Positions 4,008 to 51,725 of a DNA stretch of 64,000 bases are shown piece after piece. Within the stretch, counting starts at the first letter, position 1. Each line of letters opens with the position of its first letter. Location of the stretch: assembly GCA_038087875.1 (NCBI GenBank), contig CM075990.1, positions 5,706,001 through 5,770,000 of the forward strand. The letters run 5' to 3'. Origin of the DNA: Malacoraja senta. Taxonomy: Eukaryota. A program made the position numbers and the translations under genes. The notes under the pieces were generated by a model that was not told the DNA's origin, did not search any database, and saw only the letters and a program-made list of their open reading frames with translations.

Positions 4008-5572
4008 TCCCCAGGGCCAGATAGGCTGCATCCCAGAGTACTTAAGGAAGTACCCCCAGAAATAGTGGATGCATTAGTGATAATTTTTCAAAACTCTTTA
4101 GATTCTGGAGTAGTTCCTGAGGATTGGAGGGTAGCTAATGTAACCCCACTTTTTAAAAAGGGAGAGAGAAAACGGGGAATTACAGACCAGTTAGTCTAAC
4201 GTCGGTAGTGGAGAAACTGCTAGAATCAGTTATTAAAGATTTGATAGCAGCACATTTGGAAAGTGGTGAAATCATTGGACAAAGTCAGCATGGATTTATG
4301 AAAGGTAAATCATGTCTGACGAATCTTATAGAATTTTTCGAGGATGTAACTAGTCGAGTGGATAAGGGAGAACCAGTGGATGTGTTATATCTGGACTTTC
4401 AGAAGGCTTTCGACAAGGTCCCACATAAGAGATTAGTATACAAACTTAAAGCACACGGTATTGGGGGTTCAGTATTGATGTGGATAGAGAACTGGCTGGC
4501 AAACAGGAAGCAAAGAGTAGGAGTAAACGAGTCCTTTTCACAATGGCAGGCAGTGACTAGTGGGGTACCGCAAGGCTCAGTGCTGGGACCCCAGCTATTT
4601 ACAATTTATATTAATGATCTGGATGAGGGAATTGAAGGCAACATCTCCAAGTTTGCGGATGACACTAAGCTGGGGGGCAGTGTTAGCTGTGAGGAGGATG
4701 CTCGGAGACTGCAAGGTGACTTGGATAGGCTGGGTGAGTGGGCAAATGTTTGGCAGATGCAGTATAATGTGGATAAATGTGAGGTTATCCACTTTGGTGG
4801 CAAAAACAGGAAAGCAGACTATTATCTAAATGGTGGCCGATTAGGAAAAGGGGAGATGCAGCGAGACCTGGGTGTCATGGTACACCAGTCATTGAAAGTA
4901 GGCATGCAGGTGCAGCAGGCAGTGAAGAAAGCGAATGGTATGTTAGCATTCATAGCAAAAGGATTTGATTATAGGAGCAGGGAGGTTCTAATGCAGTTGT
5001 ACAGAGTCTTGGTGAGACCGCACCTGGAATATTGCGTACAGTTTTGGTCTCCTAATCTGAGGAAAGACATTCTTGCCATGGAGGGAGTACAGAGAAGGTT
5101 CACCAGACTGATTCCTGGGATGTCAGGACTTTCATATGAAGAAAGACTGGATAGACTCGGTTTGTACTCGCTAGAATTTAGAAGATTGAGGGGGGATCTT
5201 ATAGAAACGTACAAAATTCTTAAGGGGTTGGACAGGCTAGATGCAGGAAGATTGTTCCCGATGTTGGGGAAGTCCAGAACAAGGGGTCACAGTTTAAGGA
5301 TAAGGGGGAAATATTTTAGGACCGAGATGAGGAAAACATTTTTCACACAGAGAGTGGTGAATCTCTGGAATTCTCTGCCACAGAAGGTAGTTGAGGCCAG
5401 TTCATTGGCTATATTTAAGAGGGAGTTAGATGTGGCCCTTGTGGCTAAAGGGATCAGGGGGTATGGAGAGAAAGCAGGTACAGGATACTGAGTTGGATGA
5501 TCAGCCATGATCACATCGAAGGGCCGAATGGCCTACTCCTGCACCTATTTTCTATGTTTCTATGTTTCTATG
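4008..5572 (+). mobile_element. CR1-clade LINE, 5'-truncated, young; RT and C-terminal part of ORF2 (ORF 4208-5491)
   Basis: RT motifs QHGF, YLDFQKAFDKVPH, GVPQGSVLGP and KFADD; CR1 C-terminal RPHLEYCVQFWSP and TRGH; (TTTCTATG)n tail. It interrupts a short repeat at CTGAGTTA|CTCCAGC. Confidence 0.95.
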
Positions 5573-5929: not shown

Positions 5930-6564
5930 AGTGCCTGTCCCACTTGGGCCGTCACTTACGCGACAGGCCGGTAGTGACGGTCGCGCGACTGTCCCGCGAG
6001 AGTCTCGCGCATCATCATGCGCCCGCACAGCCGTCTGGAGCACGTGACGTCATTTGAAGATGGACACAAAATGCTGGAGTAACTCAGCAGGACCGGCAGC
6101 ACCTCTGGAGAGAAGGAATGGATGATGTTCGTGTCGAGATTCTTCATCAGTCTGAAAGAAGGGTCTTGACCCGAAACGTCACCCATTGCTTCTCTCCAGA
6201 GATGCTGCCGGTCCCGCTGAGTTACACCTGCATTTTATGTCTATCTTCAATTTTCTTGGCCCCGCTCTGGGAGTAGGAGTGGGGGCGGATCCGGATCCGC
6301 AATGGCCGTGAGCCCCAGGCTGAGTTCGACGATCGTTTGCCTGCTTCTGTTGCTGTTGGAGGTGAGAGGTTGTGTCGCGCCAGGGTCTTGGGCCTGTCCC
6401 ACTTTGGCCGTCAGTTACTCGACAGGCCGGTGGCGCGTGATGATTTTGTGCAGGACGAAGTCCACACTCCTCCACACCACTCCATGCGCCCGTCCCGCGC
6501 GCAACCCACACGCTAGCAGGTCGTGTAAATGGCTCGCGAAAGACAGCCAAGTGGGACAGGCCCT
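5930..6564. mobile_element. PIF/Harbinger-like non-autonomous DNA transposon with nested insertion
   Basis: TIRs AGTGCCTGTCCCACTTGG / CCAAGTGGGACAGGCCCT, TAA on both sides. A nested Penelope-derived palindrome lies at ~6055-6250. Confidence 0.75.
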
Positions 6565-6854: not shown

Positions 6855-7325
6855 AGAACTGCAGATGCTAGATTAAATCGAAGATAGACACAAAATGCTG
6901 GAGTAATTCAGCGGGACAGGCAGCATCTCTGGAGAGAAGGAATGGGTGACGTTTCGGGTCAGGACCCTTCTTCAGACTGAGTCTCATTGTTTGCCTGGCN
7001 NNNNNNNNNNNNNNNNNNNNNNNNNNNNNNNNNNNNNNNNNNNNNNNNNNNNNNNNNNNNNNNNNNNNNNNNNNNNNNNNNNNNNNNNNNNNNNNNNNNN
7101 NNNNNNNNNNNNNNNNNNNNNNNNNNNNNNNNNNNNNNNNNNNNNNNNNNNNNNNNNNNNNNNNNNNNNNNNNNNNNNNNNNNNNNNNNNNNNNNNNNNA
7201 TGTTTCGAGTCGAGATCCTTCTTCTAACGTCTGAAGCAGGGCCTCGACCTGAAACGTCACCTATTCCTTTCCTCCCGAGATGCTGCCTGACCAGCTGAGT
7301 TACTCCAGATTTTTGTGTCTTCAAT
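6855..7325. mobile_element. Penelope-derived short repeats flanking the assembly gap
   Basis: Family motif on the minus strand at 6855-6980 and on the plus strand at 7228-7325. Confidence 0.65.
7000..7199. other. Assembly gap (200 N)
   Basis: Run of N. Confidence 1.
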
Positions 7326-10300
7326 TGAAAATGAGTGCCGCACAGAAGTATCTAGATGTTTTCTGCAAGAACGTTTGGTGGAAGCCCTGGGGAGCAAATT
7401 TAAGCATCTCCGGCATAGCAGGCTATTGATTCAACCATTTCTGTAAGGGCAATAGCAGTTTGAATTGGGTGTCAGACAAGCAATAGGGATGGAATGGAAG
7501 TGGGAAGAAGAATGCTGTCCTCCAGATAGAGGAGAGAAGTTTTCCCCAGAGCCAGTGCTACCTTTCTGGCCTGGTACACCCGCATTTCCAATGGTTGGTT
7601 GAAGGACATATTGCTGGATGTCTGTGAGACCATGCAAGTGCTCAGCATACTGTAATCCACAGAAAGTTTGACGTACAAAGAGGCAATCAGGCTGTGCCAG
7701 ATGAAAAATCCCAACCAGGCTCACTTCCAGCACAGGCTTTGTATTCCTTCAGGTCTTCAAGTTCACATTGTTAAACAAGACGAAAATTTCTTCCACTATC
7801 ACCCTGCCAGGCAGTGAGTTCCAGACTCCTACTACCCACTGAGTGGAAACAAAAAATCTCCACTCCTGCCAACAATTACTCCGAATCTATGATTCCTGGA
7901 TTTTGCACCTTCTGTTAATGGAATCGTCCTTGCTATTTACTCTGTCTCGGCCCCTCGTCATTTTTATAAGCAATTGAATTGAATTTCCATTCTGTAACTA
8001 ATGTTGGGGAAAAAATAATCCCAGCCAATCTAATGTTCCGTCAAGCCTGCTTGAGGCCTGTTGAATACACTCCTAAACATTTAACTGCTATTTTTGGTTC
8101 AATCCATATTCCCATTTGGTTATATGTCATCCTTCCTCACTGCTTCTTCATATATATCATTGCTTTTTGCAGGTGTGATTATAAAAAAAAAATATTAATC
8201 TTCTTCTTGCGTTTGAGGCAGCAGAAGTCTGCAGCAGGGTGATGCCAACCGGTTCGACATCTGTAGGTGCCCGCCCTTAAAAGGGCGCATGCTCTGGGTT
8301 GGCGCCAAGCTGCGGTGCTGCTGCTGTCTCTGTTTGTTGTCGTTCGCCTGACTGAAGTCAGTTGACAGGGCTCACCACGGGGAGGTCGACAACATGAGCC
8401 CCAAAATATGAATGATACCTTCACAATGTTTTATTCCCTTGTTTATCTCGTCTGAAACCTCAGTAAGCAGTAATTTAAACTGCCAATGCTGCCCACTTTA
8501 CATCAGGTTCAGTATAGCAGTCTCAGCTTCCGGTTCAACAGCGAGACGGTGTGGCTGAAAAAGCTTCTAATATCATGAAATGGTGCATCAAAGTAAAGAT
8601 GGTTTTTTTTACGATGGCTTGTAGAAAGCTGACTCCTCCATATTGGATTTCTAGTAAGCTTGCTAATGCATTTCATTGAAGATAGACACAAAATGCTGGA
8701 GTAACTCAGCGGGACAGGCAGCATCTCTGGAGAGAAGGAATGAGTGATGTTTCAATTGACAATAGACAATAGGTGCAAGAGTCGGCCATTCGGCCCTTCG
8801 AGCCAGCACCACCATTTAATGTGATCATGGCTGATCATCCCCAATCAGTACCCTGTTCCTGCCTTCTCCCCATATCCCCTGACGGGTCGAGACTCTTATT
8901 CAGACTGATGTCAGGGGAGATGGAGATACATAGATAGGAAGTCTAAGGTGTGAAAACAGGACAAAGGGGACGGTGATCAAGGAAAATGTAGACTAGATCA
9001 TTTTCTAGATCATTGTTAGCTGGGAGAAGCTAACAACAAAGCAAATGAGAAAATGTAGTCGGAGACAATCAGACTGGTCGGCGAACTGGGAAGATGGAGA
9101 GAGGGAAAGCAAGGGTTGCTTGAAGTTAGAGAAGTCAATGTTCAAACCATGCATAACAATGCATTGAATTGTATGTACTGATGTAACCTCTGTAGGTCTG
9201 CCCTGTCGAAGTGCACATCTGTCTTCTGTACCGCAGAATTATTTGCAGTCCTCACCTCAGGCAAACCACTAAGACAGTATGCTTGCTTTTAAATCAGAAG
9301 ACTGTAGTTTGAAGGGGGGGATGAGATGGTGTTGAGGTGCGAAGGCACGTTCATATTCAATTATTTCATCCCCAACACCGACTGCAGTCTCAATAGCTGG
9401 CATCTCAATGATGGGCAGTGCCAACTCTGTCACTGGAGCATGCAGATAGATGTGTTTTCCTCCATTTAGGTGGTGCTGTGTCTGTGTGCCACTCTGATCT
9501 GCAAGTGAGGAAAATGTTGCAATGAGCATCATGCCACAAATGGGTGATGTTTGTCATGCTTGAATAGCTAGTAGATTCTGAAAACAAATACATCTGAGGA
9601 TTGAAGCAGAACTAAGTTATCTCGTAGAGGAGATTGTTGTTTAACAAGCAATGATATATTGTGAAAACTGCATGTGAACTGTATGGCTGGTGCAGTAGTT
9701 GATAGGATATAAGGGCAAGGGTTTTACTGACTGACTGACCATAAGTTTGCTGAAATGTTTATGCCACTCATATATAGCTTTTCAGGTGTTATTGAGTATA
9801 GCTTTAAGAAACATATATAATATATAATATTCAAAAGCAAAATAGATTGATTAAAATAACCACACTCAGAAGGTATTTAATTGAAGTAGATTTTTGTAAA
9901 CTTAGTTAAAATAAGATTAAGAGAACTGTATTATCAACTGCAGAAAGATAAAATTGTTATAAATGATTGAGAGATATTTTAGCTGCAGCTTTACTCTGTA
10001 GCGCTGTTGCATTTTTTGAAAAATTAAACTGGAATTTACAAGTTAATTTCACTTTTTGGTCACTGCCTATTTTGAATGTTAAATAATGGAGTCTGGGCTG
10101 GGTTTTCTGTTTTTGTTGTTACATAAAGCAGTAGACTGGAAAGTAGAGTAGAGACTGTAAAGTAGACTGTAATAATATACATTCTTTTTAAATTACTACT
10201 CGCTTGTTATTCCTCACCAGATGCCCTAACTAGGCATTAATAGTTTTTTGTCAATTGAACATATTCATTAAGTGAGAAACTTAATTCTCCCTTTATTAAA

Positions 10301-11261
10301 ATTATTTATTTGTAAGAGCCATCATGCAAACATCTATCAAGACGTGTGGATTTTGGTTTACCACTTAGATTCATATTCAAGAGGGTTCAAGTTTTGAGAT
10401 GATGAAAACAGTTTATTTCGAGACCCTTCGAAGGGTCTCGACCCAAAACGTCACCTGTTCCTTCGCTCCATAAATGCTGCCTCACCCGCTGAGTTTCTCC
10501 AGCATTTTTGTCTACCTTCGATTTTTCCAGCATCTGCAGTTCTTTCTTAAACAAAACAGTTTATTTGTTTGTTTGTGGGATGTAAACATTGCTGCAAATG
10601 CCAGTCCTCTCCATCTGTAGTTGCCCCTGAACTAAGGTGGATATCAAGAACTAACTACATTGAAAGTCATATATAGACCTAACTGAAAAGTAGGGAAGAC
10701 ATTCTTGCAGATATTCATAAGCCAGATGGGTTTTTACAACAGTCCGGTAGTACTCATTGTTACTATTATTGGCTTTAATTATTCATATTTCCATAATCCA
10801 GATTCTATGGTAGGATTCAAATCTGAGTCCCTGGATCGATGATCCAGAACTCTTGACTGTTATTCCAGTAACTTTAACAACCATGTGCCCTTTAACAAGG
10901 CCTTCTAAGTTTATAGTAATCTTATTTTATGTTTTAATTGAGCAATTACATGTGTTAAATGTATTTGTTTTGGAGCTGCATTGCATAGGCACTGGATGAA
11001 GCCTGGGAAACTGCTCAGAATAATGTGGAGCATGCAGAACAAGTTAGGAAAATGGGCAACTTTAATATTAGAACTGATTAGATATTTGTCTATTGAATTA
11101 TATAAAGAGAGTAACGTTCCCACTGATCTAAAGATAATTAAAGTAAAAAGAAAAAGGGTAATGCCCATTCAGCGCATGGACATTACAATTTTCAGATATG
11201 GTACTTCAGATGCCTTAATTGACCCAGATGTGCAGAGGAGAGTGTGTAAGAAGGAACCACA

Positions 11262-11800
11262 ATAGACAATAGGTGCAGGTGTAGGCCATTCGGCCCTTCG
11301 AGCCAGCACCACCATTCAATGTGATCATGGCAGATCATCCCCAATCAGTACCGCGTTCTTGCCTTCTCCCCATATTCCCTGACTCCGCTATCTTTAAGAG
11401 CCCTATCTAGCTCTCTCTTGAAAGTATCCAGAGAACCAGCCTCCACCTCCCTCTGAGGCAGAGAATTCCACAGACTCACAACTCTCTGTGAGAAAAAGTG
11501 TTTCCTCGTCTCTGTTCTAAATGGCTTACCGATTATTCTTAAACTGTGGCCCCTGGTTCTGGACTCCCTCAACATCAGGAACATGTTTCCTGCCTCTAGC
11601 ATGTCCAAACCCTTAACAATCTTATATGTTTCAATAAGAACCCCTCTCATCCTTCTAAATTCCAGAGTGTACAAGCCCAGCCACACCATTCTCTCAGCAT
11701 ATGACAGTCCCGCAATCCCGGGAATTAACCTTGTAAACCTACGCTGCACTCCCTCAATAGCAAGAATGTCCTTCCTCAAATTAGAGGACCAAAACTGCAC
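11262..11800 (-). mobile_element. CR1 LINE 3' fragment
   Basis: ORF 11345-11800 matches the C-terminus of the 4208-5491 protein; (ATTGTCT)-type tail. Confidence 0.9.
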
Positions 11801-17392: not shown

Positions 17393-17610
17393 AGGGCCTG
17401 TCCCACTTTCACGACCTAATTCACGACCTCTGCCGAGTTTTCCCTAGACTCATGCTCGCAGCATGGTCGTCACGAGGTCGTAGGTAGGTCGTGATGCTAG
17501 TCGTAGATACTCGTGGCATCGAGTAGGTCGGGGCGTTTTTTTTAGTCTGATGAAAAATGTCCACGAGTAAAAAAAGTCGTGAATTAGGTCGTGAAAGTGG
17601 GACAGGCCCT
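17393..17610. mobile_element. Harbinger-like MITE (218 bp)
   Basis: Perfect 35-bp TIR AGGGCCTGTCCCACTTTCACGACCTAATTCACGAC; flanked by TAA/CAA. Confidence 0.85.
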
Positions 17611-17974: not shown

Positions 17975-19460
17975 CAAGGTAGACAAAAATGCTGGAGAAA
18001 CTCAACGGGTGAGGCAGCATCAATGGAGTGAATGAAATAGGCAATGTTTCGGGTCGAGCCCCTTCTTCAGACTTATGTGAGGGTGGGGGGGGGGGGGCGG
18101 GAAGAAGAAAGGAAGAGGCAGAGACAGTGGGCTTAGGGAGAGCTGGTAAGGGGATGAGAATGCCGGGACTACCTGAAATTGGAGAAGTCAATGTTTATAC
18201 TGCTGGGGAGTAAGTGGCGGCGCCGTCGTACAGCAGCGGCTCGCCTGCAGTCTGTCTGTTTTTACTTTTTTTGTTGTTTTCTTTTGTCCTGTTTTAGTTA
18301 AATTTTAGTTTATTGGGTTGTGTATGTGTGGGGTTGTGGGGTGGGGGGGTGAAACATGACTTTTGTCTCTTCCTTCGGGGGAATGCGACTTTTTCTTGTC
18401 GTATCCCCCTTCTCTGCCTCCGTCTGCGCTGAGGCCAAAATGGCGGAGCTGCCGGCCTCCAACTCCAACTGCGAGCTGCCGGCCTCCAACTCCAACCGAC
18501 CACGATGCTCCGGAGGCAGAGCCAGGGCTTACCAGCGCGAGGCTGGCCAACTTCGGGGCTGCGGTGGCGTTCTGGCGGTGGCGACCGAGGACACTGGTGG
18601 CGACCTGAATCGGGAGGCTCGGCCGCGGGCCCAGTGGACGACATCGTCGGGAGCGCGCAGGTCACAGGTTGGTGACCTGTTTTTCTGGGGCTCCCGCAAC
18701 TACAGCTGCGTCCGCTGGACTGGAGGGCGGCAGCTTCGGCAGCTTCGACCACCCCGGGCCGCGGAGTTTGAGCCGGCCCGTCACGGAGCTCGGATTCAGC
18801 CGCGGGATTGACTTACCATCACCCGGCGGGGCCACAGCATCAGAAGCCTGGATCGCCTCAGCGCAGAGGGAGAACAAAGCGGGAAGAGACAGAGACTTTA
18901 AGACTTTTGCCTCCATCACAGTGAGGAGGTGCCTGGTGAACTCACTGTGGTGGATGTTAATTTGTGTTTATTGTGTGTTTTGTCATTTATTATTATATGT
19001 ATGACTGCAGGCAACGAAATTTCGTTCAGACCGAAAGGTCTGAATGACAAATAAAGGAATCTCTAATCTCTAATCTCTAAACTGCCCAAGCGAAATATGA
19101 GGTGCTGCTCCTCCAATTTACGGTGGGCCTCACTCTGGCCATGGAGGAGGCCCAGGACAGAAAGGTCGGATTCGGAATGGGAGGGGGAGTTGAAGTGCTG
19201 AGCCACCGGGAGATCAGGTTGGTTATTGCGAACCGAGCGGAGGTGTTGGGCGAAGCGATCGCCAAGCCTACGCTTGGTCTCACCGATGTAGAGTAGCTGA
19301 CACCTAGAGCAGCGGATGCAATAGATGAGGTTGGAGGAGGTCCTTGAATGGAGTCAAGGGGGGATGTAAAGCGACAAGTGTAGCATTTCCTGTGGTTGCA
19401 AGGGAAAGTGCCAGGAGAGGGGGTGGTTTGGGTGGGAAGGGACGAATTGGCCAGGAGGGG
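17975..19460 (-). mobile_element. Penelope-like element fragment (GIY-YIG endonuclease plus 3' terminal repeat), split by an insertion
   Basis: Minus strand of ~19081-19340 translates as SSNLIYCIRCSRCQLLYIGETKRRLGDRFAQHLRSV..PVAQHFNSPSHS..LEEQHLIFRLG, a Penelope-type GIY-YIG domain. It continues at 18213 into the short-repeat motif. Confidence 0.85.
18214..19080 (+). mobile_element. GC-rich non-autonomous retroelement nested in the Penelope fragment
   Basis: Sharp boundaries that interrupt the GIY-YIG sequence; ends GACAAATAAA..(AATCTCT)3; related to 1643-2527. Confidence 0.7.
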
Positions 19461-20322
19461 GTGGTTTTATTCATTTTATTAATTAACTTAAATTAAATTC
19501 CCCAGCTGCCCTAGTAGGATGGAACACATACACGTCTGAATCATTCCAATAGCAATAATTCAAATGGTTGATTATTCAACCACATACAGTGTAGGATTCC
19601 TTGCTTTTTTTTCTGATTGCATTAATAATATGGGATTATTGTGATTTACATTTATTAGCACTACGAAGGAATTTCATTTTTTGAGATGGATATTTCCTTT
19701 GTCAGTGAGACAATTTCCTTTTGTACAATCAATTAATTGTTTTCATATCCCGTTCTCCTGTTACACCCTACAAATAATCGCTTGTGGTTATAAACATTTT
19801 GAAATTATTTCTCATTGGCATTATCAACAAAGAATACAAAAGAAACTGCAAATGCCAGAAATTATGAAATAAAACCAGAAAAGGCTGGAAGTGGTTCAGG
19901 CCTGATCTGTGGAGGGACAGAGCTAACATTTTAGATGAATGACCTTTTGTTAGAACAGAATCATTAGCATTATCGAGATCTTTATCTCATCTATCTAAAA
20001 CATTAATCCTGTTTCTCCCTCCACAGATGCTGCCAATCTGCTGTATATTTTAAAGCATGTTTAACTTTAACATCATTAAAGTGTCCAAGTATTATTCAGT
20101 TTCGTGAAACATTTTTAAATGGAGGTACATGAGCCAGTTTATTACGTAAAAGATAACCTATGTTTATTCGTTTTGATTGATATACTTAAACTATTTCAAA
20201 ATATGGTATGCTTTAAATTTATATTTAAATGCATTTAAAAGTACAACTTGGTTTTATTGATGCAATTATTTGGCATCTTTTGGAAAAATGTTGTAGGAAA
20301 GCATAAATCAGATGAAGTAGAT

Positions 20323-20910
20323 GTTAAACAATTGATACCAAATTCAAATCAGTAGTAAACTAGCAAAACCTGCCAATTATTGTTTAAACAAAACTCTTAA
20401 CAAGACATCTCCACGATTGATCAAATTCCTATTGTCTAAATATTTCATAGCTCAATACAGGTGGATATCTTTGTCCATTTCAGAAAGATGGACAAGATGC
20501 TTGAGAGTGCAATTCTAAAAATCTCTCCACACATATTACACTAGCATTACTTTTAACTTTCCATTACCTCCAGGCAAGAAAAAAATACTTATCTAATATG
20601 TAAAATAATTACTTTGCTATTATATAGAACAGGCCACCTGACACTGATGTCCAAGATGCTAAATGGTATTGTTGTTCCCAATTAAGATAGTTGTGATATT
20701 AATTGTCTTCTACAATCAGTGACCGAATGCTTATTGTTTTTAAAACCTTAATACTGATATCCATTACCTCAAATTTAATTCAAGGCAAAAATGGTGTTAA
20801 ATTGCAAAAACAATTATCATGGGAAGCAAGAATACTTTCAGTATATTAATTATAGGTCTCAGGTGATACTGACTCCAATGAACCTTTTAAGGGAACAGTA
20901 CATTCATTAG
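20323..20910. repeat. Left arm of a long, old inverted repeat
   Basis: Colinear reverse-complement match to 26317-26922, e.g. CATTTCAGAAAGATGGACAAGATGCTTGAGA vs TCTCAAGCATCTTGTCCATCTTTCTGAAATG. Confidence 0.9.
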
Positions 20911-21142
20911 CAAATTCAGTCCAATATATCAAGCATGTTAACATTACTTCAATAACCAGTAAAGTAACTGTGTAAGATATGCTCAGAAATTTCAATCCTG
21001 ACTTTAGACAACATGTTACAAAATGAAACAAAGTGCAAAAGGATTATGAAGGAGTTCCTGGCATGCAGGGTGTTTTAACTGCTCCAATCCCATTATCTGC
21101 ACAGCATATGATGAGCACACATCAAAGTACTGTGGGAAACAT

Positions 21143-21149
<7 letters not shown>
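20752..21149. repeat. 398-bp direct repeat, copy 1 (candidate giant L1 target-site duplication)
   Basis: No differences seen versus 25823-26220 (offset 5071). The identical 61-aa ORFs at 20846 and 25917 in the ORF track agree. Confidence 0.95.
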
Positions 21150-21209
<60 letters not shown>

Positions 21210-24200
21210 GTACGGTAGATTACAGTAATGTACAACACGTATATATTAATACATTTTTTGTACCGCTTCACTTTTTTAAACTTTAAGAAAGAAAAAGAAA
21301 GAAGTAAGAAAAGTGAAGAAAGTGCACAAAGGTTGTGAAGTGCAAAAGAGTGTTGGGAAAAGAAAGCCCCTTAGAAAAGAAGTTAGAGAAGGAAGTAAAG
21401 TTAGAAAATAGACCCTAGAAAAAAAAAGAGAAAGAAAGAAGGAACAATCGCTCTATTATAATTCTTATACCATACTTCATAGAGAAGGAACTACCAACCA
21501 AGTCTGTTTTTATTTTACCTCCCATTACCAGGTCCAGATACCTTTTATTTATTTATTTGTTTTTCTAAATTACTATTGCACCTCATGCTTGTAATAGGTC
21601 CAAAAACGTAGACCACGTCTTTTGAAATTGATCTACTTTGCCTACTAGGAGGAATCTCATCTCTTCCAGATGTAATGTTTCCAACATATTTGATGTCCAC
21701 ATTTTTATTGTTGGTGTGGGCGCATTTTTCCAGAATTTAAGTATAAGCTTTTTTCCCATTATTAGCCCATAATTGAGTAAATTCTTCTGATACACGTTTA
21801 ATTCAGGAATACCTTCCGATATTCCAAAAATAATCCATTCTGGTTTTGGTACCAGTTTTATTTTGATTAATTTTGAAAAAATATCAAATATTTCAAACCA
21901 GAATTTTTGGATTTTTGTACAAAAAACAAAAGAATGTGCTATGGTAGCTTCTTGACATATACATTTATCACAGATTGGTGAGACGTTAGGAAAGATTTTA
22001 TTTAGTTTGGTTTTTGAATAATATAATCTATGTAATGTTTTAAATTGGATAAGCGTATGTCGTACGTTGATCGAGCATTTATGCACCTGTAATAAATGAT
22101 TATCCCAACTCTCTTTTGAAATTTTTATACCTAGATCTTGTTCCCAATCTCTTCTAATTCCATCTGTTGTGGGTATTTCTATATTTAAGATGATATTATA
22201 TAAGTATGATATTAAATTAACTGTTTCCGCCTTTGTCTTCATTGCTTCATCTAGTAAGTCGGAAGGCATATTATAATAATCTTTTGTGTGTGTTTTCAAA
22301 TAGTCACAGATTTGTAGATATTTAAAATATTGATTATTTTTCAAATTATATTTCAGTTGTAGTTGTTGGAATGATAGTAATTTTTCTAATTCATACAGAT
22401 CTTCGAGCGTTTTAATTCCCATTCTTTCCCATTGTATAAATGCTTTATCTATGATTGAAGGTTTAAACGATGGGTTATTGACTATTGGTATTAAGAGAGA
22501 TAGGTTTCTTAATTTTAGATTCTGTTTTATTTGCTTCCATGTTCTAATAGTGCTATATATAATTGGATTTTTATTATAATTTTTATTATTCAAATTTATT
22601 GGAGAGAGAATAATCGCTCCTATATTATTCGGGGAGCAATCCCCTTTTTCCATTATAATCCAGTCCACCTGCTGGGCAGAATTGTCCAGCAGGTGAATCA
22701 TATTTTTAATATTTACTGCCCAGTTATAATACATAAAGTTAGGGAGCGCTAGACCCCCCAACTCTTTTCGTTTGTTAAGGTGTGTTCTTTGTATTCTGTG
22801 GGATTTGTAATCCCATATAAAATTTGTAATGTCTGAGTCCAGTTTTTTGAAAAACTTTTTTGGGAGATATATAGGTATTGATTGAAATAGGTAAAGGATT
22901 TGTGGCAAGAAAATCATTTTTATAGCATTTATCCTACCTATTAAGGACATCGGAAGTGTTTTCCAAAATTTAATCAGATTATTTAATTTCTTAAGTAGGG
23001 GATTATAATTAGCTTTAAACATATCATGGTAATTTCTAGTAATCTCAATTCCTAAATATTTGAATTTTTCCATAGCTATTTTAAAAGGGAATTTCCTGAG
23101 ATGTGTTGAGTCTTTTGGTTTAATCGACATAATTTCACTTTTGTTCCAATTTATTCTATATCCTGAAAAGGATCCAAAGTCCTCAATTAAGTTTAATATA
23201 TTTGGTATACTAATTTGTGGTTTTGTGATGTACAGTAGTACATCATCAGCATATAGGGATAGTTTGTTGTTTGAATATTTTGTGTTATAACCGTGAATAT
23301 TCGAGTGTGTTCTTATTTTTTCAGCAAGGGGTTCAATTACCAAAGCAAATAACAGCGGTGATAGTGAACATCCTTGTCTGTTGCCCCTAGATAATTCGAA
23401 TTTTGAAGATAATATATTATTAGTTAGTATTCTAGCCGTAGGTTTGTTATATAGTAGTTTTATCCATGCAATAAAGTTTTCTCCCAATTGGAATTTTTGC
23501 AATACTTTGATCATATAGTCCCATTCTACTTGATCAAACGCTTTTTCTGCGTCCAGTGAGATGATAGCTAACTCTTGGTCATCAGATTTATGTGAATGCA
23601 TTATGTTAAGCAAACGTCTCAAATTATTAAATGAGTGTCTCTTAGGTATAAATCCTGTTTGATCCTCATGTATTAGTCTACTAACATACTTGCTTAATCT
23701 GTTGGCTAATGTTTTTGCTATTATTTTCTGATCCGTATTTAACAAAGCAATAGCTCTATATGATCCTGGTTCTTCTATATTTTTATCTTTTTTAAGTATT
23801 AATATGATCGTTGATTCCGCTAGTGTTTCAGGTAGGTTTTGCTCTTTATAAGCATATGTATACATTTTTTGTAATCGTGGAGTAACTATATCATAAAAAG
23901 ATTTATAAAATTCATTACTGAATCCGTCTGGTCCTGGTGTTTTTCCATTTTTTAGTGTTTTTATTGTGTCTTCTATCTCCTTAGAAGTAATTTGTGCTCC
24001 CAGTTCCTCTTGTTCCCTGCGTTCTAATTGTGGTAGATTACAATTATCTAAAAATTCTGAGATTTTATTATTGTCTATTGACGTTTTAGATGTGTATAGA
24101 TTCTGGTAAAATTGAGCAAATCTTTTATTAATATCCTTGGGTAGTGTTAATACTTCCCCTCTATCTGATTTAATCTTTAATATTGCATTCTCTTTTTCCC

Positions 24201-25822
24201 GTTTTTTAAGTTGTCGTGCTAGAAGTTTGTGGGGTTTGTCCCCGAATTCGAAGTGTTCTTGTTTTGTGATTTGAAATAATGTTATAACTTTCTCTGACAG
24301 TAATTTATTTAACTGAAATTTCAGTAGTAGTATTTTATTATGTTTATCCATAGTTGGGTCTTTAGCATTATCTATATCTAACTGTTTTATTTGATCTTCT
24401 AAGTGTCTTTGTTCATTCTTATTCTTTTTATTTTGATAAGCTTGAAATGAAATAATGACTCCTCTTATAAATGCTTTGAAGGATTCCCATAATAACGTGG
24501 GGGATATCTCTGGTGTATCATTTAACTCAAAAAATAGATCCATCTGTTTTTTTAGGTAGATACTCCCTTGAGGGTCTTTTAAAATTTGTGAGTTAAACCT
24601 CCAGAACGGTTTATTCATAGACATTCCTTCTAGTTTTAGAACAAAAGTTAACGGAGAATGATCTGAGATCGCATTAATATGATATTTAGGATTCAGAGAT
24701 TGCGAAATTAATTTTGTATCCACAAGAAAATAGTCTATCCGTGAATATGTTTTATGCACCATTGAATAAAACGAGTAATCCCTTCCCGTTGGGTTTGCAA
24801 TCCTCCATACATCTGTTATATTTGTGTTTTCCATATATGTGTGTAAGAGTTCACTGGTTTTAGATTTCGTCTGACCTTTTTGTTTTTGCATCGATTTATC
24901 TAAATAAGGATCTAAAACACAATTAAAATCTCCTCCGATTATAACATTTTGATAATTAGATTCTGCAATTATATTCAGAATTTTATTAAAAAATTGAGGG
25001 TTATCAAAGTTGGGCGCATATATGTTTACCAGCGTAATTGGCATATTATTGATCTCCCCTGCTACTATAAGATATCTCCCTTCCTTATCTAAAATAGTGT
25101 TCTTTGATTTAAATGGAATTCCTTTACGAATAATAATTGCAGTACCTCTAGATTTGGAGGTAAATGAAGAGTGAAATGTTTGGCCTATCCAGTTCGCCCT
25201 CAGTCTTGTCTGATCTTGCTGTTTAAGATGTGTTTCCTGTAGAAACGCAATGTCCGTGTTGTATGATTTCAACTGAGCTAGTATCTTGCCCCTTTTAATA
25301 GGTTCATTAATCCCCCTTATATTCCAACTACATAATGTGATTCCTCCTATTTTCTTTTGATTGTCGTCATGCATTTTTACCAGTTTTAATGACCTTAATT
25401 ATTGTGGTGCGTTCATACCTCCGGACTCTGGTTATTTTGGGAGTATTTCTATTATAGACTTCCTTGGTAGTTCTCCTGCGCGATTGTCCTTGAAGAAAAA
25501 ACACACAGATGTGACATATTGTGATTAAAAAAAATATATATAAATCAAATAAATTTACGGTGTCTAAAATTTCAACACCGTAGTGAGTGGCCCACTCGTC
25601 TGTGGGGTACGACATCCATAACGCTTCCGGCGTAGTTGGTATAAAGTTAGCCCCGCTGTATTTATTACCCAAAATCTATGGGGTCATTACCGTTTCCAAT
25701 TCAGTTCTATTTCACCCAGTTACAATTTATATATGTGTCAAATGTATTCGATTCCATATCCTACTCACTCTTTATCTCTTAACTATTTTAAAATGAATTT
25801 AGTATTGTTAAAGTGAGCGGTT
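21146..25822 (-). mobile_element. L1-clade LINE, 5'-truncated (no ORF1), with 60-nt poly(A) tail
   Basis: Poly-T at 21146-21205, 3' UTR at 21206-21582, intact ORF2, and ~450 nt of upstream spacer-like sequence. Confidence 0.95.
21583..25374 (-). CDS. L1 ORF2 protein (APE endonuclease, reverse transcriptase, C-terminal Cys/His region), 1263 aa, uninterrupted
   Basis: SWNIRG, LQETH, GGDFN, SRIDY and SDH (APE); PGPDGF, LDAEKAFD, GNRQGCSLSP and YADD (RT); CDKC..H...C at the C-terminus. Confidence 0.95.
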   Translation of the reverse strand: MHDDNQKKIGGITLCSWNIRGINEPIKRGKILAQLKSYNTDIAFLQETHLKQQDQTRLRANWIGQTFHSSFTSKSRGTAIIIRKGIPFKSKNTILDKEGRYLIVAGEINNMPITLVNIYAPNFDNPQFFNKILNIIAESNYQNVIIGGDFNCVLDPYLDKSMQKQKGQTKSKTSELLHTYMENTNITDVWRIANPTGRDYSFYSMVHKTYSRIDYFLVDTKLISQSLNPKYHINAISDHSPLTFVLKLEGMSMNKPFWRFNSQILKDPQGSIYLKKQMDLFFELNDTPEISPTLLWESFKAFIRGVIISFQAYQNKKNKNEQRHLEDQIKQLDIDNAKDPTMDKHNKILLLKFQLNKLLSEKVITLFQITKQEHFEFGDKPHKLLARQLKKREKENAILKIKSDRGEVLTLPKDINKRFAQFYQNLYTSKTSIDNNKISEFLDNCNLPQLERREQEELGAQITSKEIEDTIKTLKNGKTPGPDGFSNEFYKSFYDIVTPRLQKMYTYAYKEQNLPETLAESTIILILKKDKNIEEPGSYRAIALLNTDQKIIAKTLANRLSKYVSRLIHEDQTGFIPKRHSFNNLRRLLNIMHSHKSDDQELAIISLDAEKAFDQVEWDYMIKVLQKFQLGENFIAWIKLLYNKPTARILTNNILSSKFELSRGNRQGCSLSPLLFALVIEPLAEKIRTHSNIHGYNTKYSNNKLSLYADDVLLYITKPQISIPNILNLIEDFGSFSGYRINWNKSEIMSIKPKDSTHLRKFPFKIAMEKFKYLGIEITRNYHDMFKANYNPLLKKLNNLIKFWKTLPMSLIGRINAIKMIFLPQILYLFQSIPIYLPKKFFKKLDSDITNFIWDYKSHRIQRTHLNKRKELGGLALPNFMYYNWAVNIKNMIHLLDNSAQQVDWIIMEKGDCSPNNIGAIILSPINLNNKNYNKNPIIYSTIRTWKQIKQNLKLRNLSLLIPIVNNPSFKPSIIDKAFIQWERMGIKTLEDLYELEKLLSFQQLQLKYNLKNNQYFKYLQICDYLKTHTKDYYNMPSDLLDEAMKTKAETVNLISYLYNIILNIEIPTTDGIRRDWEQDLGIKISKESWDNHLLQVHKCSINVRHTLIQFKTLHRLYYSKTKLNKIFPNVSPICDKCICQEATIAHSFVFCTKIQKFWFEIFDIFSKLIKIKLVPKPEWIIFGISEGIPELNVYQKNLLNYGLIMGKKLILKFWKNAPTPTIKMWTSNMLETLHLEEMRFLLVGKVDQFQKTWSTFLDLLQA

Positions 25823-26220
25823 TACTGATATCCATTACCTCAAATTTAATTCAAGGCAAAAATGGTGTTAAATTGCAAAAACAATTATCATGGGAAGCAA
25901 GAATACTTTCAGTATATTAATTATAGGTCTCAGGTGATACTGACTCCAATGAACCTTTTAAGGGAACAGTACATTCATTAGCAAATTCAGTCCAATATAT
26001 CAAGCATGTTAACATTACTTCAATAACCAGTAAAGTAACTGTGTAAGATATGCTCAGAAATTTCAATCCTGACTTTAGACAACATGTTACAAAATGAAAC
26101 AAAGTGCAAAAGGATTATGAAGGAGTTCCTGGCATGCAGGGTGTTTTAACTGCTCCAATCCCATTATCTGCACAGCATATGATGAGCACACATCAAAGTA
26201 CTGTGGGAAACATCCATTTT
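25823..26220. repeat. 398-bp direct repeat, copy 2
   Basis: Identical by eye to 20752-21149; abuts the L1 5' truncation point. Confidence 0.95.
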
Positions 26221-26316
26221 CTGCATCTCCAGTAGCCCTGATAATTTGTATTGGCTTGTTTGATCTACCGAATGGCATATAAAAGCGACATCTGCCAAGT
26301 TCAGTCACAATCATTA

Positions 26317-26922
26317 CTAATGAATGTACTAAATTTACTTAAAGGGTTCATTGGAATCAGTATCATCTGAGACCTATAATTAATATAATGAAACTATTCT
26401 TGCTTCCCTCTGTTTTTCTTTTGTAATTTTGCGCCATTTTTTTTACAATTAATTACATTTGAAGTAATGGATCCCAGTATTAACAGTTTTTAAACTAAGC
26501 ATTTGGTCACTCTGGTTGTAGAATAAAATTAATATCATAATTATCTTAATTGGGAACATCAATACCATTTGGCTTTTTGGACACTAGTGTCAGGTGGCCT
26601 GTTTTACATTATAGCAATTTAACTCTTTCACATATTAGATAGGTATTTTTCTCTTCTACAATTATCTGGTGGTAACAGAAAGTTAAAGGTAATGCTGCTG
26701 CAATATGTGTGGAGAGATTTTAAGAGTAGCATTCTCAAGCATCTTGTCCATCTTTCTGAAATGGTCAAGGTTATCCTTTTGTAGTTATCCCTTTGTAGTA
26801 TCTAGACCAAAAGGCATTTGATAAGTCACAGAGCTGTCTTGTTAAGAGTTGTGTTTAAACTAGAATTTGCAATAGTCATTTTCTGCCAGTTTACTATTTG
26901 AATTTGGCAACAATTGGTAAAC
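26317..26922. repeat. Right arm of the long, old inverted repeat
   Basis: Reverse complement of 20323-20910, with scattered substitutions and indels. Confidence 0.9.
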
Positions 26923-27790
26923 AGTTAGAGGCACTGTCTTAGTTATTTTCGGTAAGAAAATGTGACTACTGGTTACATTTTTCTATGACAGCTGGTGGTA
27001 ATTTATAAACAAGCAAGGCATTGAAAATCAGTTTTGAAATAATAATATTATATATTTGATCCAAACTAATGGTACAAAAAAAGTATCTTGTTGCCAGAAA
27101 AACAAATCTGGCCTGTATGGAGCTTTTCTTAGCTGGTATGATCTCTGAATACAAAACATACACAAATTGGCTTCCTCCATCAGAGATCCAATAGAAAAAT
27201 GAGTACATAACTGTGTTGAAGGATATTTTGAGGTTGTTGTTGCATAACATAATGCATTAGATTTAGATCTACTTTACATATCACTATTGGATAATTGCCG
27301 TGAAAGTGCTTCATACTGACGCTCGTGCTAAAAGTAGTAAAAATGTAGTCTTTAGCATTAGTATGCTTTATCCCAATCATCAAAATAATTATCACAATCT
27401 ATGTTCCACAGTAACAATTGAATAAAGCCAGAGGAATTCTCTTGGCAACTTGACGAATATTTACCCCACATCAATGATAAAAACAAAATTGCTGTTGGCA
27501 AATTAGCAACAATGTCTCATATAGTCCCTTTCATATTTCAAACCATTTTCTGAATTGTAATGTGGGTAATGACAACAAATTTGTACACAGCAAGTTCTCA
27601 TAATCAATGTTTTCCAAGGGATAATGATGTTGACTGAGAGATAAATATTGATTTGGACATCAGGGATAACTCATACTCTTTAAAATAATGCCATGGATTT
27701 TCAATATTCACCTTATATGCACAATGACATATCTGAGTTTTCAGAGACATATTTATTACACTGGACCTGAAGCTTAGATTTTCATGCCTA

Positions 27791-28065
27791 ATGTGCCTGT
27801 CCCATCTAGGCTATTTTTTTAGGCGACTAGGCTGTCGCCACATGGTTGCCAGGGCGTTGCCTGTATGGTCGTGAGTAGTCTCCTCAGTCGCCAAAAGAAT
27901 CATAGCATCTTTCTGATCGCCGCTGGATTTTCAACATGTTGAAACATTTTCGAGGACAGTCGGCAACAGTAGGTTTGACGCCAATGAGTGTAGCTTAACT
28001 TTTCCTGACTTAAGTGCTGTCATAGGTTGTTGCCAGGTGACATAGGTTGTCGCCGGTGCTAACTT
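27791..28065. mobile_element. Degenerate Harbinger-like MITE fragment (one end visible)
   Basis: Begins TAA-TGTGCCTGTCCCA, like the TIRs at 5930 and 17393; internal GTCG/TAGG repeats resemble 17393-17610. Confidence 0.5.
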
Positions 28066-46480: not shown

Positions 46481-48657
46481 GGACCTACCCAGGTCATACA
46501 GCAGCGCCAGGGCCTGGAACTAGGCCTTGTTCTCGCACTTGGCTCGGTCCAGGCTCGGTCCAGCCGTCAGCTTGGAAGCGGGTTGAAAGTTTGAGTTAAA
46601 AACTGGGTTTAAAAACTTGGTTTGGGGTATTTTAAAAGGCTGCAACTTCGGAAATATAGGTGGAAATGCGATGGGAAGATGTTTATGGCGACCACGGGGA
46701 AAATGTGAGTGGGATATGTGAAAATGGGAAGGCTGTGGCCTAGCGTTAGGAAGAAGATAGGAATTAACCAGATTTTAACCAGATTGACACACACATACAG
46801 AGACAACCACACAGAGATCGTGGGCACAAACACAAACAATAGGAAGGCTTTTAGTATTATAGAGATGGGGTGTTGTTAGAGCAAGACCCAGTGCAAACAA
46901 AGTTTTGAAAAATCACATGTCAAGCTGTATTTTTTAATAATATTTGAAAAGTATTCAGTTTGGGTAGAACATGGAAAGGGGTTATTAGCACAATCAACAC
47001 ACTTGTCATTATGCTATCAGTATCACATAAACTGAAATGGAATGGAGCTAGGTGGCATTATGGACATTGAAATAGTTGACTTAAGTAGTGGAACAGCAAT
47101 ATGGTTAAAACATAACCCTGTTAACACAATGCAAAAATTGCAAATGACCTAACCCAGCTTGGGTTAATTTTCTGGAATGGTTAGAGATTCAAGCTAGTGG
47201 GGGTTGAATACAATGGTTTCAAGTCTTCCCATATTGCTTGGATATGTTACTTACATGTTATTGTATTTTATTAGATATTGTGTTGTTACTTCTAAAAACA
47301 TGGAATAAAGCAAGAGTTGGGATGAACTGGACCCGTGAAAAATGACATCATGCTTTTGAATGAATTTGCTGAAAAGTAACCTGTAAATGAGAAAATAAAG
47401 GGGTCAAGTACAAATCGTCAGGTAACTGAAAGCATGGTAGCAGTAACTATTATATTTGTTTCTCTGGCTTTTTTATGATAAGTAGCAGAGCTGACATAAA
47501 ACATGTGCATTTAATTAAAACATAAAAATACAAGTTCAAAGACAGTAATAAAAAAAATGGTTTAACTTAGCACCAAAACTTTTTAGATATAGTTATTACA
47601 TCAAATAACTAATCTTTGTAACATACTAAGTCTAGAGGTTCCTTGTATAGTTGGAAATGAGATCGGGAAGAGCATTTCAGGTAGGTCGTTTATGGTAAAG
47701 AAATTGGCATCATCTTTGTGTTTTTTAATAATATTTGAAAAATATTCAGTTTCAGCAATGGAAAACAGAACCCTATCATTGTTTTTGTAGCTTAGCTGAA
47801 GCCAGGATTGGATAATTAAACTAGCTGTCTGCCAAAGATATTTAAACAAATGTTAAATGTGAGGTGGTCCACATGACATGCCAAGATCAAAGGGTCGACT
47901 ATGTCAAAGACATTGATGTGGGAATAAATTTATGGAAGAAAAGCGAGCAAAGGCCACTATATAAAGGGTAAGTAGAATTGACACAATATTAGTGGGCAGA
48001 AATCAGTGTTGAGGCTGGGACAGGAAAATTATAAAGGAAGACCATTCCCTCTGGAATTTCCCAACCTCTGTCAATAGCTGATTAGAACATTAACAAATTA
48101 CTTTATTCAGAGTAAGTACAGAACATATTGGAAAGACTCTGTGGGTCAGGTAACATCTGTATAAAGAAAAACAGAGTAAATTGAGCGTACACAAAAATGC
48201 TGGAGAAACTCAGCGGGTGCGACATTGTGGGCTCCGCCTTTCCTTGAGCACTGTTGTGTTTTGAACATCTTTCATTCATTTGTACTATTTACCTTCTATA
48301 TCTTTCGTTCAGACTCTCAGTCTGAAGAAGGGTCACAACCCGAAACGTCACATATTCCATTTCTCCAGAGATGTTGCCTGACCCGCTGAGTTACTCCAGC
48401 TTTTTGTATCTATCTTTACATTGAGATGGTATATTGATTTACAAGAACACTGCCAATGCTGGAAATGTTTTACTGAGTATTAGGTGCATTCAGCCCTTTG
48501 AGTTTATACTAACTGTCTGACTAACCCCATCGCTCTCATTCTACCGTTTATTTCTTTATATCGATTCTCTCACACATGCCCAATAACACTACCTCGATCA
48601 TCCAGCACTTACACAAGGACTAATTTAGTTAGCAATTAATGTATTGGAATGGTGGGA

Positions 48658-49053: not shown

Positions 49054-49167
49054 ACATACACACGTGTGTGTATGTATATATGTATATATACACACTATAT
49101 ACACACACACACACATATACACACATACGTATATACATACACATGCATATATACACACACATTTATA

Positions 49168-49930
49168 CATAGAAACATAGAAAATAGGTGCAGGAGTAGG
49201 CCATTCGGCCCTTCGAGGCTGCACCGCCATTCAATATGATCATGGCTGATCATCCAACTCAGTATCCTGTACCTGCTTTCTCTCCATACCCCCTGATCCC
49301 TTTAGCCACAAGGGCCACATCTAACTCCCTCTTAAATATAGCCAATGAACTGGCCTCAACTACCTTCTGTGGCAGAGAATTCCAGAGATTTACCACTCTC
49401 TGTGTGAAAAATGTTTTCCTCATCTCGGTCCTAAAAGATTTCCCCCTTATCCTTAAACTGTGACCCCTTGTTCTGGACTTCCCCAACATCGGGAACAATC
49501 TTCCTGCATCTAGCCTGTCCAACCCCTTAAGAATTTTGTACGTTTCTATAAGATCCCCCCCTCAATCTTCTAAATTCTAGCGAGTACAAACCGAGTCTAT
49601 CCAGTCTTTCTTCATATGAAAGTCCTGACATCCCAGGAATCAGTCTGGTGAACCTTCTCTGTACTCCCTCTATGGCAAGAATGTCTTTCCTCAGATTAGG
49701 AGACCAAAACTGTATGCAATACTCCAGGTGTGGTCTCACCAGGACCCTGTACAACTGCAGTAGAACCTCCCTGCTCCTATACTCAAATCCTTTTGCTATG
49801 AATGCTAACTACCATTCGCCTTCTTCACTGCCTGCTGCACCTGCATGCCTACTTTTAATGACTGGTGTACCATGACACCCAGGTCTCGTTGCATCTCCCC
49901 TTTTCCTAATCGGCCACCATTCAGATAATA
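49168..49930 (-). mobile_element. CR1 LINE 3' fragment (same young subfamily as 4008-5572)
   Basis: Near-identical peptide fragments; (TTTCTATG) tail. Confidence 0.9.
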
Positions 49931-49949
49931 TTCACATGCGCATATTATA

Positions 49950-50181
49950 CACACAGAGAGTGGTGAATCTCTGGAATTCTCTGCCACAGAAGATAGTTGA
50001 GGCCAGTTCATTGGCTGTATTTAAGAGGGAGTTAGATGTGGCCCTTGTGGCTAAAGGGATCAGGGGATATGGAGAGAAGGCAGGTACAGGATACTGAGTT
50101 GGATGATCAGCCATATTCAATGGCGGTGCAGGCTCGAAGAGCCGAATGGCCTACTCCTGCACCTATTTTCTATGTTTCTAT
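49950..50181 (+). mobile_element. CR1 LINE extreme 3' fragment, inverted relative to 49168-49930
   Basis: Reverse complement of ~49168-49407; ends TTTCTATGTTTCTAT. Confidence 0.9.
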
Positions 50182-51419: not shown

Positions 51420-51725
51420 AGCCGCGGTTGTACTTACCTCCCATTTGTGACAGCGCGTTGCGCGCTAGATATTCAAATGCTAACGGGCGCCGCCATGGGG
51501 GGGGGAGGCGTGGTCTGCGGCGGGGGGCGGGGCGCGGGGCGCGGGGCGAGGTTGTGCGGCTGCGCCACGGAGTGCGGCGAGGTTGTGCGGCTGCGCCACG
51601 GAGTGCGGCCATCCCCCAGCGCGAGCGAGGCGTCGAGACCGCGCATGTGCCAAGCGGCCCGAAGGGGAAGGGTTGGAACTGGCGCCACGTTTGCCGGTTC
51701 AGTCAGAGCTCGAAACAGAGCGAGC
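51420..51725. promoter_or_regulatory. Small CpG island with GC boxes and a 31-bp tandem duplication, ~1.5 kb upstream of the ADAMTS14 ATG
   Basis: High CpG density, GGGGCGGGGC motif, and the unit GGCGAGGTTGTGCGGCTGCGCCACGGAGTGC twice at 51545-51606. The promoter role is inference only. Confidence 0.4.

What the first reader, a model, noticed from the sequence alone, without database searches (positions are those of the whole stretch)
20752..26220. Young L1 flanked by a 398-bp apparently perfect duplication: candidate giant target-site duplication
Seen: 20752-21149 and 25823-26220 show no differences by eye and abut the poly(A) tail and the 5' truncation point of the L1 exactly. The tail-side junction is at ..CATCCATTTT|CTGCA, a TTTT tract suited to priming on the poly(A). 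Known: L1 target-primed reverse transcription normally leaves duplications of roughly 7-20 bp. Inference: second-strand cleavage occurred ~400 bp away, possibly guided by the surrounding inverted repeat, so the L1 duplicated host sequence. Perfect identity and a pure 60-nt tail imply a very recent, possibly polymorphic event.
Basis: partly seen in the sequence, partly recalled or inferred. Interest (0 to 1): 0.8.

Follow-up and report, generated by a model that had tools for sequence, protein, structure and literature searches.

The report
Young L1 with 398-bp target duplication
A LINE-1 jumping gene in what is likely a skate- or ray-like fish sits between two identical 398-base copies of DNA that occurs once in other samples and related species, so this likely recent jump copied about 25 times more landing-site DNA than usual, an outcome already known from cultured and cancer cells.

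Summary
Confirmed. 20752-21149 and 25823-26220 are identical (398 bp). They flank a 5'-truncated L1 with an intact ORF2, no ORF1 and a 56-60 nt poly(A) tail. All 6 public runs laid (2 samples of the best-matching organism, 4 relatives) cross the insertion point without a tail, and 3 hold left flank, one copy and right flank in one contig. The empty site is therefore single-copy. High-depth family contigs show a 6-bp microhomology at the 5' junction (chance 0.003), so the duplication is 392-398 bp. The only TTTT/AA on the strand needing the second cut, within 700 nt, lies 10 nt beyond the junction (about 1%, post hoc). Best reading: priming at TTTT/C, a distal second cut, then microhomology joining. 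Replication-based copying gives the same product. The surrounding inverted repeat is probably incidental. No read carrying the filled allele was available. Long TSDs are known from cultured and tumour cells. This scan noted six similar cases in other genomes (unchecked), one skate/ray-like. New member of a known kind. It matters more if this lineage does it routinely, which could not be tested.

The parts
20752..21149 (+). Target-site duplication, tail-side copy (398 bp). Ends in TTTT, the inferred priming end.
   Evidence: single copy at the empty site
21146..21205 (-). Poly(A) tail of the L1: pure 60-nt run, 4 nt of it shared with the target
21206..21582 (-). 3' untranslated part, 377 bp, 41% T on the sense strand. 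No AATAAA next to the tail. Not compared with other copies.
21583..25374 (-). Intact L1 ORF2, 1263 codons: endonuclease, reverse transcriptase and C-terminal Cys/His motif
   Evidence: full-length match to human LINE-1 ORF2p, 625 bits, E 2e-186
25375..25822 (-). Remnant of the inter-ORF region (about 450 bp, 36% GC). The element is 5'-truncated here; family copies continue upstream.
   Evidence: family contigs cover it and run on beyond 25828; composition
25823..25828 (.). 6-bp microhomology shared by the L1 family sequence and the target at the 5' junction
   Evidence: loose ends behind 25828 in X17 and X18; chance 0.003
25823..26220 (+). Target-site duplication, 5'-side copy (398 bp, identical)
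20737..20745 (.). TTTTTAAAA: TTTT/AA consensus on both strands, cut point 408 nt from the first nick and 10 nt outside the duplication. Candidate second nick.
   Evidence: only minus-strand TTTT/AA within -700..+300 of the first nick
20322..20913 (.). Left arm of an old inverted repeat (79% identical to the right arm); both arms are present in relatives
26314..26923 (.). Right arm of the old inverted repeat; 329-bp spacer in the empty allele

Best explanation
This is a likely very recent L1 insertion, flanked by two identical copies of 392-398 bases that occur once at the empty site, likely made by target-primed reverse transcription with an unusually distant second cut. Inferred steps: (1) the + strand was nicked at TTTT/C (21149) and the T-rich end primed on the poly(A) tail; (2) reverse transcription stopped in the inter-ORF region after about 4.6 kb; (3) the - strand was cut about 400 nt away, most likely at the TTTT/AA site 408 nt from the first nick, and the DNA between the cuts was unwound; (4) the cDNA end annealed to the - strand overhang through 6 bp of microhomology, a 10-nt flap was trimmed, and gap filling on both sides doubled the 398 bp. 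Shown: the structure, the single-copy empty site, the microhomology and the position of the TTTT/AA site. Inferred: the order of cuts, the nuclease, the unwinding and germline inheritance.
For: Identity and exact boundaries. Intact ORF2 matching human LINE-1 ORF2p over its full length. Empty site: X17 (2057-bp contig), X18 (869 bp) and relative X1 (995 bp) run left flank, one copy, right flank in one contig; X2, X4 and X12 also cross 26220/26221 without a tail; X17, X18 and X12 show the left flank as the loose end before 25823 (6 of 18 listed runs laid). Depth over the 398 bp is flat and equals the unique flank (23.3 in X17) against 6,900-7,750 for the adjoining L1 words. Microhomology of 6 bp, P=0.003 in 2 million random junctions. 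Nearest minus-strand TTTT/AA is 10 nt beyond the junction; a random point has one within 0-10 nt in 0.9-1.2% of cases, or 2.7-4.2% for TTTT/A. Precedent: TSDs over 100 bp in up to 10% of HeLa inserts and most inserts in NER-deficient cells, one with a TTTT/c site (PMC5223499, passages); a 1228-bp TSD in 1 of 25 ZfL2-2 inserts (PMC2666801, passages).
Against: No read or contig carrying either filled junction was seen in any run laid, so the filled allele rests on the assembly alone. Contigs could collapse a perfect 398-bp repeat in a carrier, so X17 and X18 are not proven empty. The TTTT/AA coincidence was noticed after the fact and assumes the human consensus holds for this fish enzyme. The first nick is TTTT/C although + strand TTTT/AA sites lie 73, 261 and 408 nt upstream. 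PMC12809410 (discussion) says the second cut has no strong sequence consensus. Preprint 10.1101/2024.12.14.628481 (passages) proposes break-induced replication for 1-10 kb duplications of this kind.
Confidence: 0.55

Rival explanations
1. Same real insertion, but the duplication came from replication rather than a distant nick on the same duplex. The cDNA end, or the reciprocal DNA end, invaded the sister chromatid or intact duplex at the 6-bp microhomology and copied about 400 bp; or the primed left end was joined to a sister broken at the two-strand TTTTTAAAA site.
For: It gives the identical product and needs no 400-bp unwinding. [quoted passage not shown] The TTTTTAAAA site has a cut point at -408 on both strands.
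Against: Pure copying leaves the nearby TTTT/AA site as an approximately 1-4% coincidence. No templated or extra bases at either junction.
Confidence: 0.25
2. The old inverted repeat folded back and directed the cuts: the first nick in the spacer, the second at a mismatch in the hairpin stem.
For: The first nick lies in the 329-bp spacer of the longest close inverted repeat in the window. In the hypothetical - strand hairpin, an A.G and a T.G mismatch at 20758/20757 would place a cut inside the microhomology. Human L1 endonuclease cuts two base pairs downstream of such mismatches in vitro (PMC12809410, abstract and sections 7, 8, 13).
Against: 16% of 7-nt windows in the arm hold such a predicted cut. 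A cut there would leave only 2 of the 6 matching bases to anneal. The arms are 79% identical and extrusion costs about +1,080 kcal/mol against the duplex, a rough figure without supercoiling. The first nick is 71 bp off the axis, and the mirror of the other breakpoint (26479) is not a breakpoint. Inverted pairs with spacers under 1 kb span 9.4% of the window. The same paper found no cutting in single-stranded DNA, which is what the spacer would be.
Confidence: 0.07
3. Two independent same-orientation L1 insertions about 400 bp apart on different chromosomes, one primed at 21149 and one at the + strand TTTT/AA at 20741 with a small target deletion, were joined inside the L1 by unequal crossing-over or by an assembly haplotype switch.
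For: It explains the TTTTTAAAA site 10 nt from the junction by ordinary first-strand priming. Target deletions of 2-15 bp at such sites are listed in PMC5223499 (table passage).
Against: It needs two insertions within 400 bp from a family whose depth ratio suggests only a few hundred near-identical copies genome-wide (depth is a rough guide only). Neither single-insertion allele appeared in the 6 runs laid.
Confidence: 0.05
4. Assembly artefact: a false duplication produced when a heterozygous insertion was merged.
For: The copies are 100% identical, and no read or contig supporting the filled allele was seen.
Against: A merge of an empty allele with an ordinary short-TSD allele cannot create a junction from the L1 5' end to a point 398 bp upstream. 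That junction carries a 6-bp microhomology (P=0.003), a known feature of 5'-truncated L1 (PMC4245944, passages), and the other junction is a T-tract priming site. The window's only N gap is at 7000-7199, about 13.5 kb away.
Confidence: 0.05

Closest known systems
Large TSDs of de novo human L1 inserts in HeLa and NER-deficient (XPA, XPC, XPD) cells; Servant et al., PMC5223499 (passages seen)
   Same: Poly(A)-tailed L1 primed at a T-rich site with a duplication of hundreds of bases (listed examples include 217, 407 and 503 bp, up to 5.9 kb; one at TTTT/c); a distal second nick with helicase unwinding is proposed there.
   Different: Those are engineered elements in cultured mammalian cells. This is an endogenous element in an animal genome assembly, likely inherited, with the empty site seen in other samples and species.
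Long TSD class (L-TSD, >20 bp) of human L1 and zebrafish ZfL2 inserts in DT40 and HeLa cells; PMC4245944 (passages, section 8) and PMC2666801 (passages)
   Same: Named category; microhomology annealing at the 5' junction of truncated elements; host-dependent frequency.
   Different: Cell-culture events; the fish element tested there is L2 clade. A 392-398 bp case of a natural fish L1 was not in the passages seen.
L1-associated small tandem duplications in cancer genomes and induced clones; bioRxiv 10.1101/2024.12.14.628481 (passages)
   Same: Duplication with an L1 at its junction, regarded as a large TSD.
   Different: Somatic, 1-10 kb, and attributed to break-induced replication.
Non-mammalian vertebrate L1 with a long inter-ORF region; PMC5381506 (passages)
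   Same: Inter-ORF region of several hundred bp and low GC, T-rich 3' UTR, poly(A) tail.
   Different: No AATAAA directly before the tail here; ORF1 and the 5' UTR are lost by truncation.

Membership tests
L1-clade non-LTR retrotransposon | ORF2 with N-terminal APE-type endonuclease and reverse transcriptase, collinear with LINE-1 ORF2p | tested here: met
   Pfam PF03372 (14-238) and PF00078 (526-777); residues 11-1256 align to human ORF2p at 625 bits against 82 for the best R2 protein
L1-clade non-LTR retrotransposon | 3' poly(A) tail | tested here: met
   60-nt pure run at 21146-21205
L1-clade non-LTR retrotransposon | ORF1 upstream of ORF2 | tested here: inconclusive
   Absent from this truncated copy. 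Family contigs continue beyond 25828, but only about 10 letters were shown
L1-clade non-LTR retrotransposon | L1 rather than Tx1 subgroup by phylogeny | not tested
   No tree was built; the assignment rests on the score against human ORF2p and on anatomy
TPRT insertion with target-site duplication | Duplicated sequence present once at the empty site | tested here: met
   One contig across flank, copy and flank in X17, X18 and X1; nick site crossed without a tail in 6 of 6 runs. Collapse of a perfect repeat in a carrier cannot be excluded for X17 and X18
TPRT insertion with target-site duplication | Duplication abuts the tail and the 5' end, and is not element or transduced sequence | tested here: met
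   Exact boundaries; single-copy depth over the 398 bp; it overlaps the local inverted-repeat arm
TPRT insertion with target-site duplication | First nick at a TTTT/A-like site | tested here: inconclusive
   TTTT/C: the T tract is present but the base after the cut is not consensus; a TTTT/c case is listed in PMC5223499
TPRT insertion with target-site duplication | Microhomology at the 5' junction of a truncated copy | tested here: met
   6 bp
TPRT insertion with target-site duplication | Both copies and the L1 on one DNA molecule | not testable with these tools
   No run carrying the filled allele was served
Canonical short-TSD L1 insertion | TSD of about 5-30 bp | tested here: not met
   392-398 bp; usual range from PMC5223499, PMC2912911 and PMC12633430 passages

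The most novel reading that the evidence does not exclude
In skates and rays, endogenous L1 routinely finishes insertion with a second cut hundreds of bases away, at the next endonuclease consensus on the opposite strand. Inherited duplications of 100-400 bp would then be a normal footprint in this lineage, missed because surveys look only for 5-30 bp TSDs. This would be a natural germline counterpart of the NER-deficient phenotype and a steady source of small host duplications.
Probability: 0.15. Interest if true: 0.7.

Novelty: new member of a known kind. Interest (0 to 1): 0.33.

Why it matters
How the second strand is cut during LINE insertion is still open. Long TSDs are mostly known from cultured and tumour cells, and two genome surveys read here defined TSDs as 5-30 or 5-25 bp (PMC2912911, PMC12016303; passages), so they could not count long ones. 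This locus is an unmutated natural case with a known empty site, a resolved microhomology and a candidate second nick, so it is a clean entry for a family-wide count. One event says little on its own. If the lineage does this often, L1 is a routine maker of small host duplications there, and detection tools that cap TSD length will miss or misclassify such insertions.

Tried and rejected
No whole genome is held for this window, so TSD lengths of other family copies could not be surveyed. Attempts to find copies with flanks elsewhere gave nothing: viral contigs with ORF2 and metagenome contigs with a 28-base motif from the element's 3' end. Look-ups of earlier notes by sequence and by relatives were blank. 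Rfam found nothing in 19000-28000. The inverted-repeat arms hold no stop-free stretch over 65 codons; what made the repeat is unexplained. 3' transduction rejected: the 398 bp is not between the L1 and its tail. 5' transduction, or part of the element, rejected: the element is truncated, and the 398 bp is single-copy and native to this locus. A pre-existing tandem duplication rejected: relatives about 4% diverged show one copy. Templating from the right arm rejected: copy 2 is 100% copy 1 and only about 80% like the arm. Four other short few-copy direct repeats were inspected as possible long TSDs of other insertions; none flanks a recognisable tailed element. Nine paper searches listed no report of long L1 TSDs in cartilaginous fish or in inherited fish insertions. 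The library lacks most subscription papers and no supplements were read, so germline cases may be in print.

Full report
Observation. The two segments are exactly 20752-21149 and 25823-26220: 398 bp with no difference, 5071 bp apart. The T run is 60 nt (21146-21205) and its first four T lie inside the duplication. Of 142 direct self-matches in the window, 8 are few-copy, and this is the only one above 95% identity. The one N gap is at 7000-7199. From recall of the SINE and LINE sequences, the host looks like a skate or ray; no call tested this. A reprolysin-propeptide exon lies about 27 kb away.

The element. The insert holds an uninterrupted ORF2 on the - strand (21583-25374) with endonuclease and reverse transcriptase domains. 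It aligns over residues 11-1256 with human LINE-1 ORF2p at 625 bits; the best R2 protein scores 82. Upstream lie about 450 bp at 36% GC with no ORF1, fitting the long inter-ORF region described for fish L1 (257-1,032 bp; PMC5381506, passages). Family contigs continue past the window's junction, so the copy is 5'-truncated. In run X17 the L1 words next to the junction have depth 6,929-7,750 against 23.3 for the unique flank. That suggests a few hundred near-identical copies, but the tool warns that depth is no copy number. Two relatives (X4, X12) have no match to this end of the element at 90%.

The empty site. No genome is held, so I searched public runs with copy 2 and the right flank. Of 18 runs listed, two samples of one organism held 83-90% of the words and the rest 6-20%. 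I laid 6 of the 18. X17 has a 2057-bp contig with the left flank, one copy and the right flank; X18 (869 bp) and the relative X1 (995 bp, about 96% alike) show the same. In one search the loose end before 25823 in X17 and X18 is exactly the window's left flank, and in X12 it is that flank with 2 changes in 30. All 6 runs cross 26220/26221 without a tail. Depth over the 398 bp is flat and equal to the flank. So the duplicated DNA is native and single-copy, is not part of the element, and was not tandem beforehand. No contig bridged either filled junction: all 8 records laid for X17 were listed, and for X18 the depth just right of the junction equals the one flank contig. Caveat: contigs drop rare paths, and a graph could collapse a perfect repeat in a carrier, so X17 and X18 are probably, not provably, empty. 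X17's contig differs from the window at 2 of 1578 bases, so it is another haplotype. Zero differences in 398 bp bound the divergence of the copies at 0.75%, well under the roughly 4% to relatives. The insertion is young and likely polymorphic. The filled allele itself rests on the assembly alone.

The junctions. Family contigs match the window through 25828, six bases into copy 2, and only then diverge. The 5' junction therefore has a 6-bp microhomology; 0.3% of 2 million random junctions reach this. Microhomology is typical of 5'-truncated L1 (PMC4245944, passages) and is hard to obtain from an assembly merge. The duplication is 392-398 bp depending on how those bases are assigned. The first nick is TTTT/C, not the consensus. 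On the strand that needs the second cut, the only TTTT/AA between -700 and +300 is at -408, ten bases beyond the junction. A random point has such a site within ten bases about 1% of the time, or 3-4% for TTTT/A. I noticed this after the fact, and it assumes the human preference.

Mechanism. The simplest account is priming at 21149, synthesis of about 4.6 kb, a second cut near -408, unwinding, annealing at the microhomology, trimming of ten bases and gap filling (0.55). Copying from the sister or intact duplex gives the same product (0.25); a preprint favours it for 1-10 kb cases (10.1101/2024.12.14.628481, passages), and PMC12809410 states that second cuts lack a strong consensus (discussion). 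Two insertions recombined (0.05) and an artefact (0.05) remain because no read spans the allele. Taken together, a real single insertion that made the duplication is about 0.87 likely.

The inverted repeat. The arms are 79% identical with a 329-bp spacer. In favour of a role: the first nick is in the spacer, and a hypothetical hairpin would have A.G and T.G mismatches beside the junction, which human L1 endonuclease cuts next to in vitro (PMC12809410, abstract and sections 7, 8, 13). Against: 16% of 7-base windows in the arm have such a site, a cut there would leave only two bases to anneal, the breakpoints are not symmetric, extrusion costs about +1,080 kcal/mol in a rough calculation, and close inverted pairs cover 9.4% of the window. 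I put it at 0.07.

Comparison with what is known. TSDs over 100 bp made up no more than 10% of HeLa inserts and 57-91% in NER-deficient lines, up to 5.9 kb (PMC5223499, passages). One of 25 zebrafish L2 inserts in DT40 cells had 1228 bp (PMC2666801, passages). In human sperm all 51 new Alu inserts had 8-18 nt (PMC12633430, passages), and long-read population data give a median of 21 bp (PMC12350158, passages). Two surveys defined TSDs as 5-30 or 5-25 bp and could not count long ones. Gilbert 2002 and 2005, Symer 2002 and Zingler 2005 were seen only as cited. Nine searches listed no report for cartilaginous fish; subscription papers and supplements were not seen. This scan has six notes of 160-438 bp duplications in other genomes, one skate/ray-like with two cases, and one L1-linked 3-kb duplication in this genome. 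I checked none of them. They suggest the outcome recurs in assemblies, and they gave the lead for the novel case.

Verdict. A real, very young L1 insertion with a long target-site duplication: a new member of a known kind, with unusually clean junctions. Interest 0.33. The bolder reading, that this lineage's L1 does this routinely, has probability about 0.15 and would merit about 0.7; a family-wide TSD count in the assembly would decide it.

Noticed in passing
run X17, record 11 (matches window 25792-25821): A 507-bp contig at single-copy depth (28) joins the same L1 subfamily, truncated at 25821, to unrelated flank. It is another copy broken off within 1-7 bases of this one, a possible truncation hot spot in the inter-ORF region.
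   Followed up: no
20322-20913 and 26314-26923: Old inverted repeat of about 600 bp, 79% identical, 329-bp spacer at the empty site. Present in relatives, single-copy at 85% likeness, no long ORF and no Rfam match. Origin unexplained.
   Followed up: partly
53523-53890 (+): Exon encoding a reprolysin propeptide (PF01562); ADAMTS14-like from recall. Whether the L1, about 27 kb upstream, lies in an intron or before the gene was not determined. A GC-rich patch at about 51480-51680 may be a promoter or a repeat.
   Followed up: partly
17393-17610: 218-bp element with perfect 35-bp terminal inverted repeats, MITE-like. The same terminal motif recurs at 5933-5972 and 6392-6431.
   Followed up: no
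4157-5491 (+), 56996-57901, 49165-50181, 11250-11800, 63077-63516: Several copies of another LINE family (RT match for the first; CR1-like from recall), pairs of them 76-99% alike. The copy at about 49.2-50.2 kb includes an inverted 244-bp segment.
   Followed up: no
46926-46961 and 47717-47752: 36-bp AT-rich direct repeat (94%) around 756 bp of unrecognised sequence with no obvious tail.
   Followed up: partly
7000-7199: 200-N assembly gap, about 13.5 kb from the finding.
   Followed up: no
21206-21582: The L1's last 350 bases have no AATAAA near the tail, unlike the general description of vertebrate L1; a short 3' transduction was not excluded.
   Followed up: no
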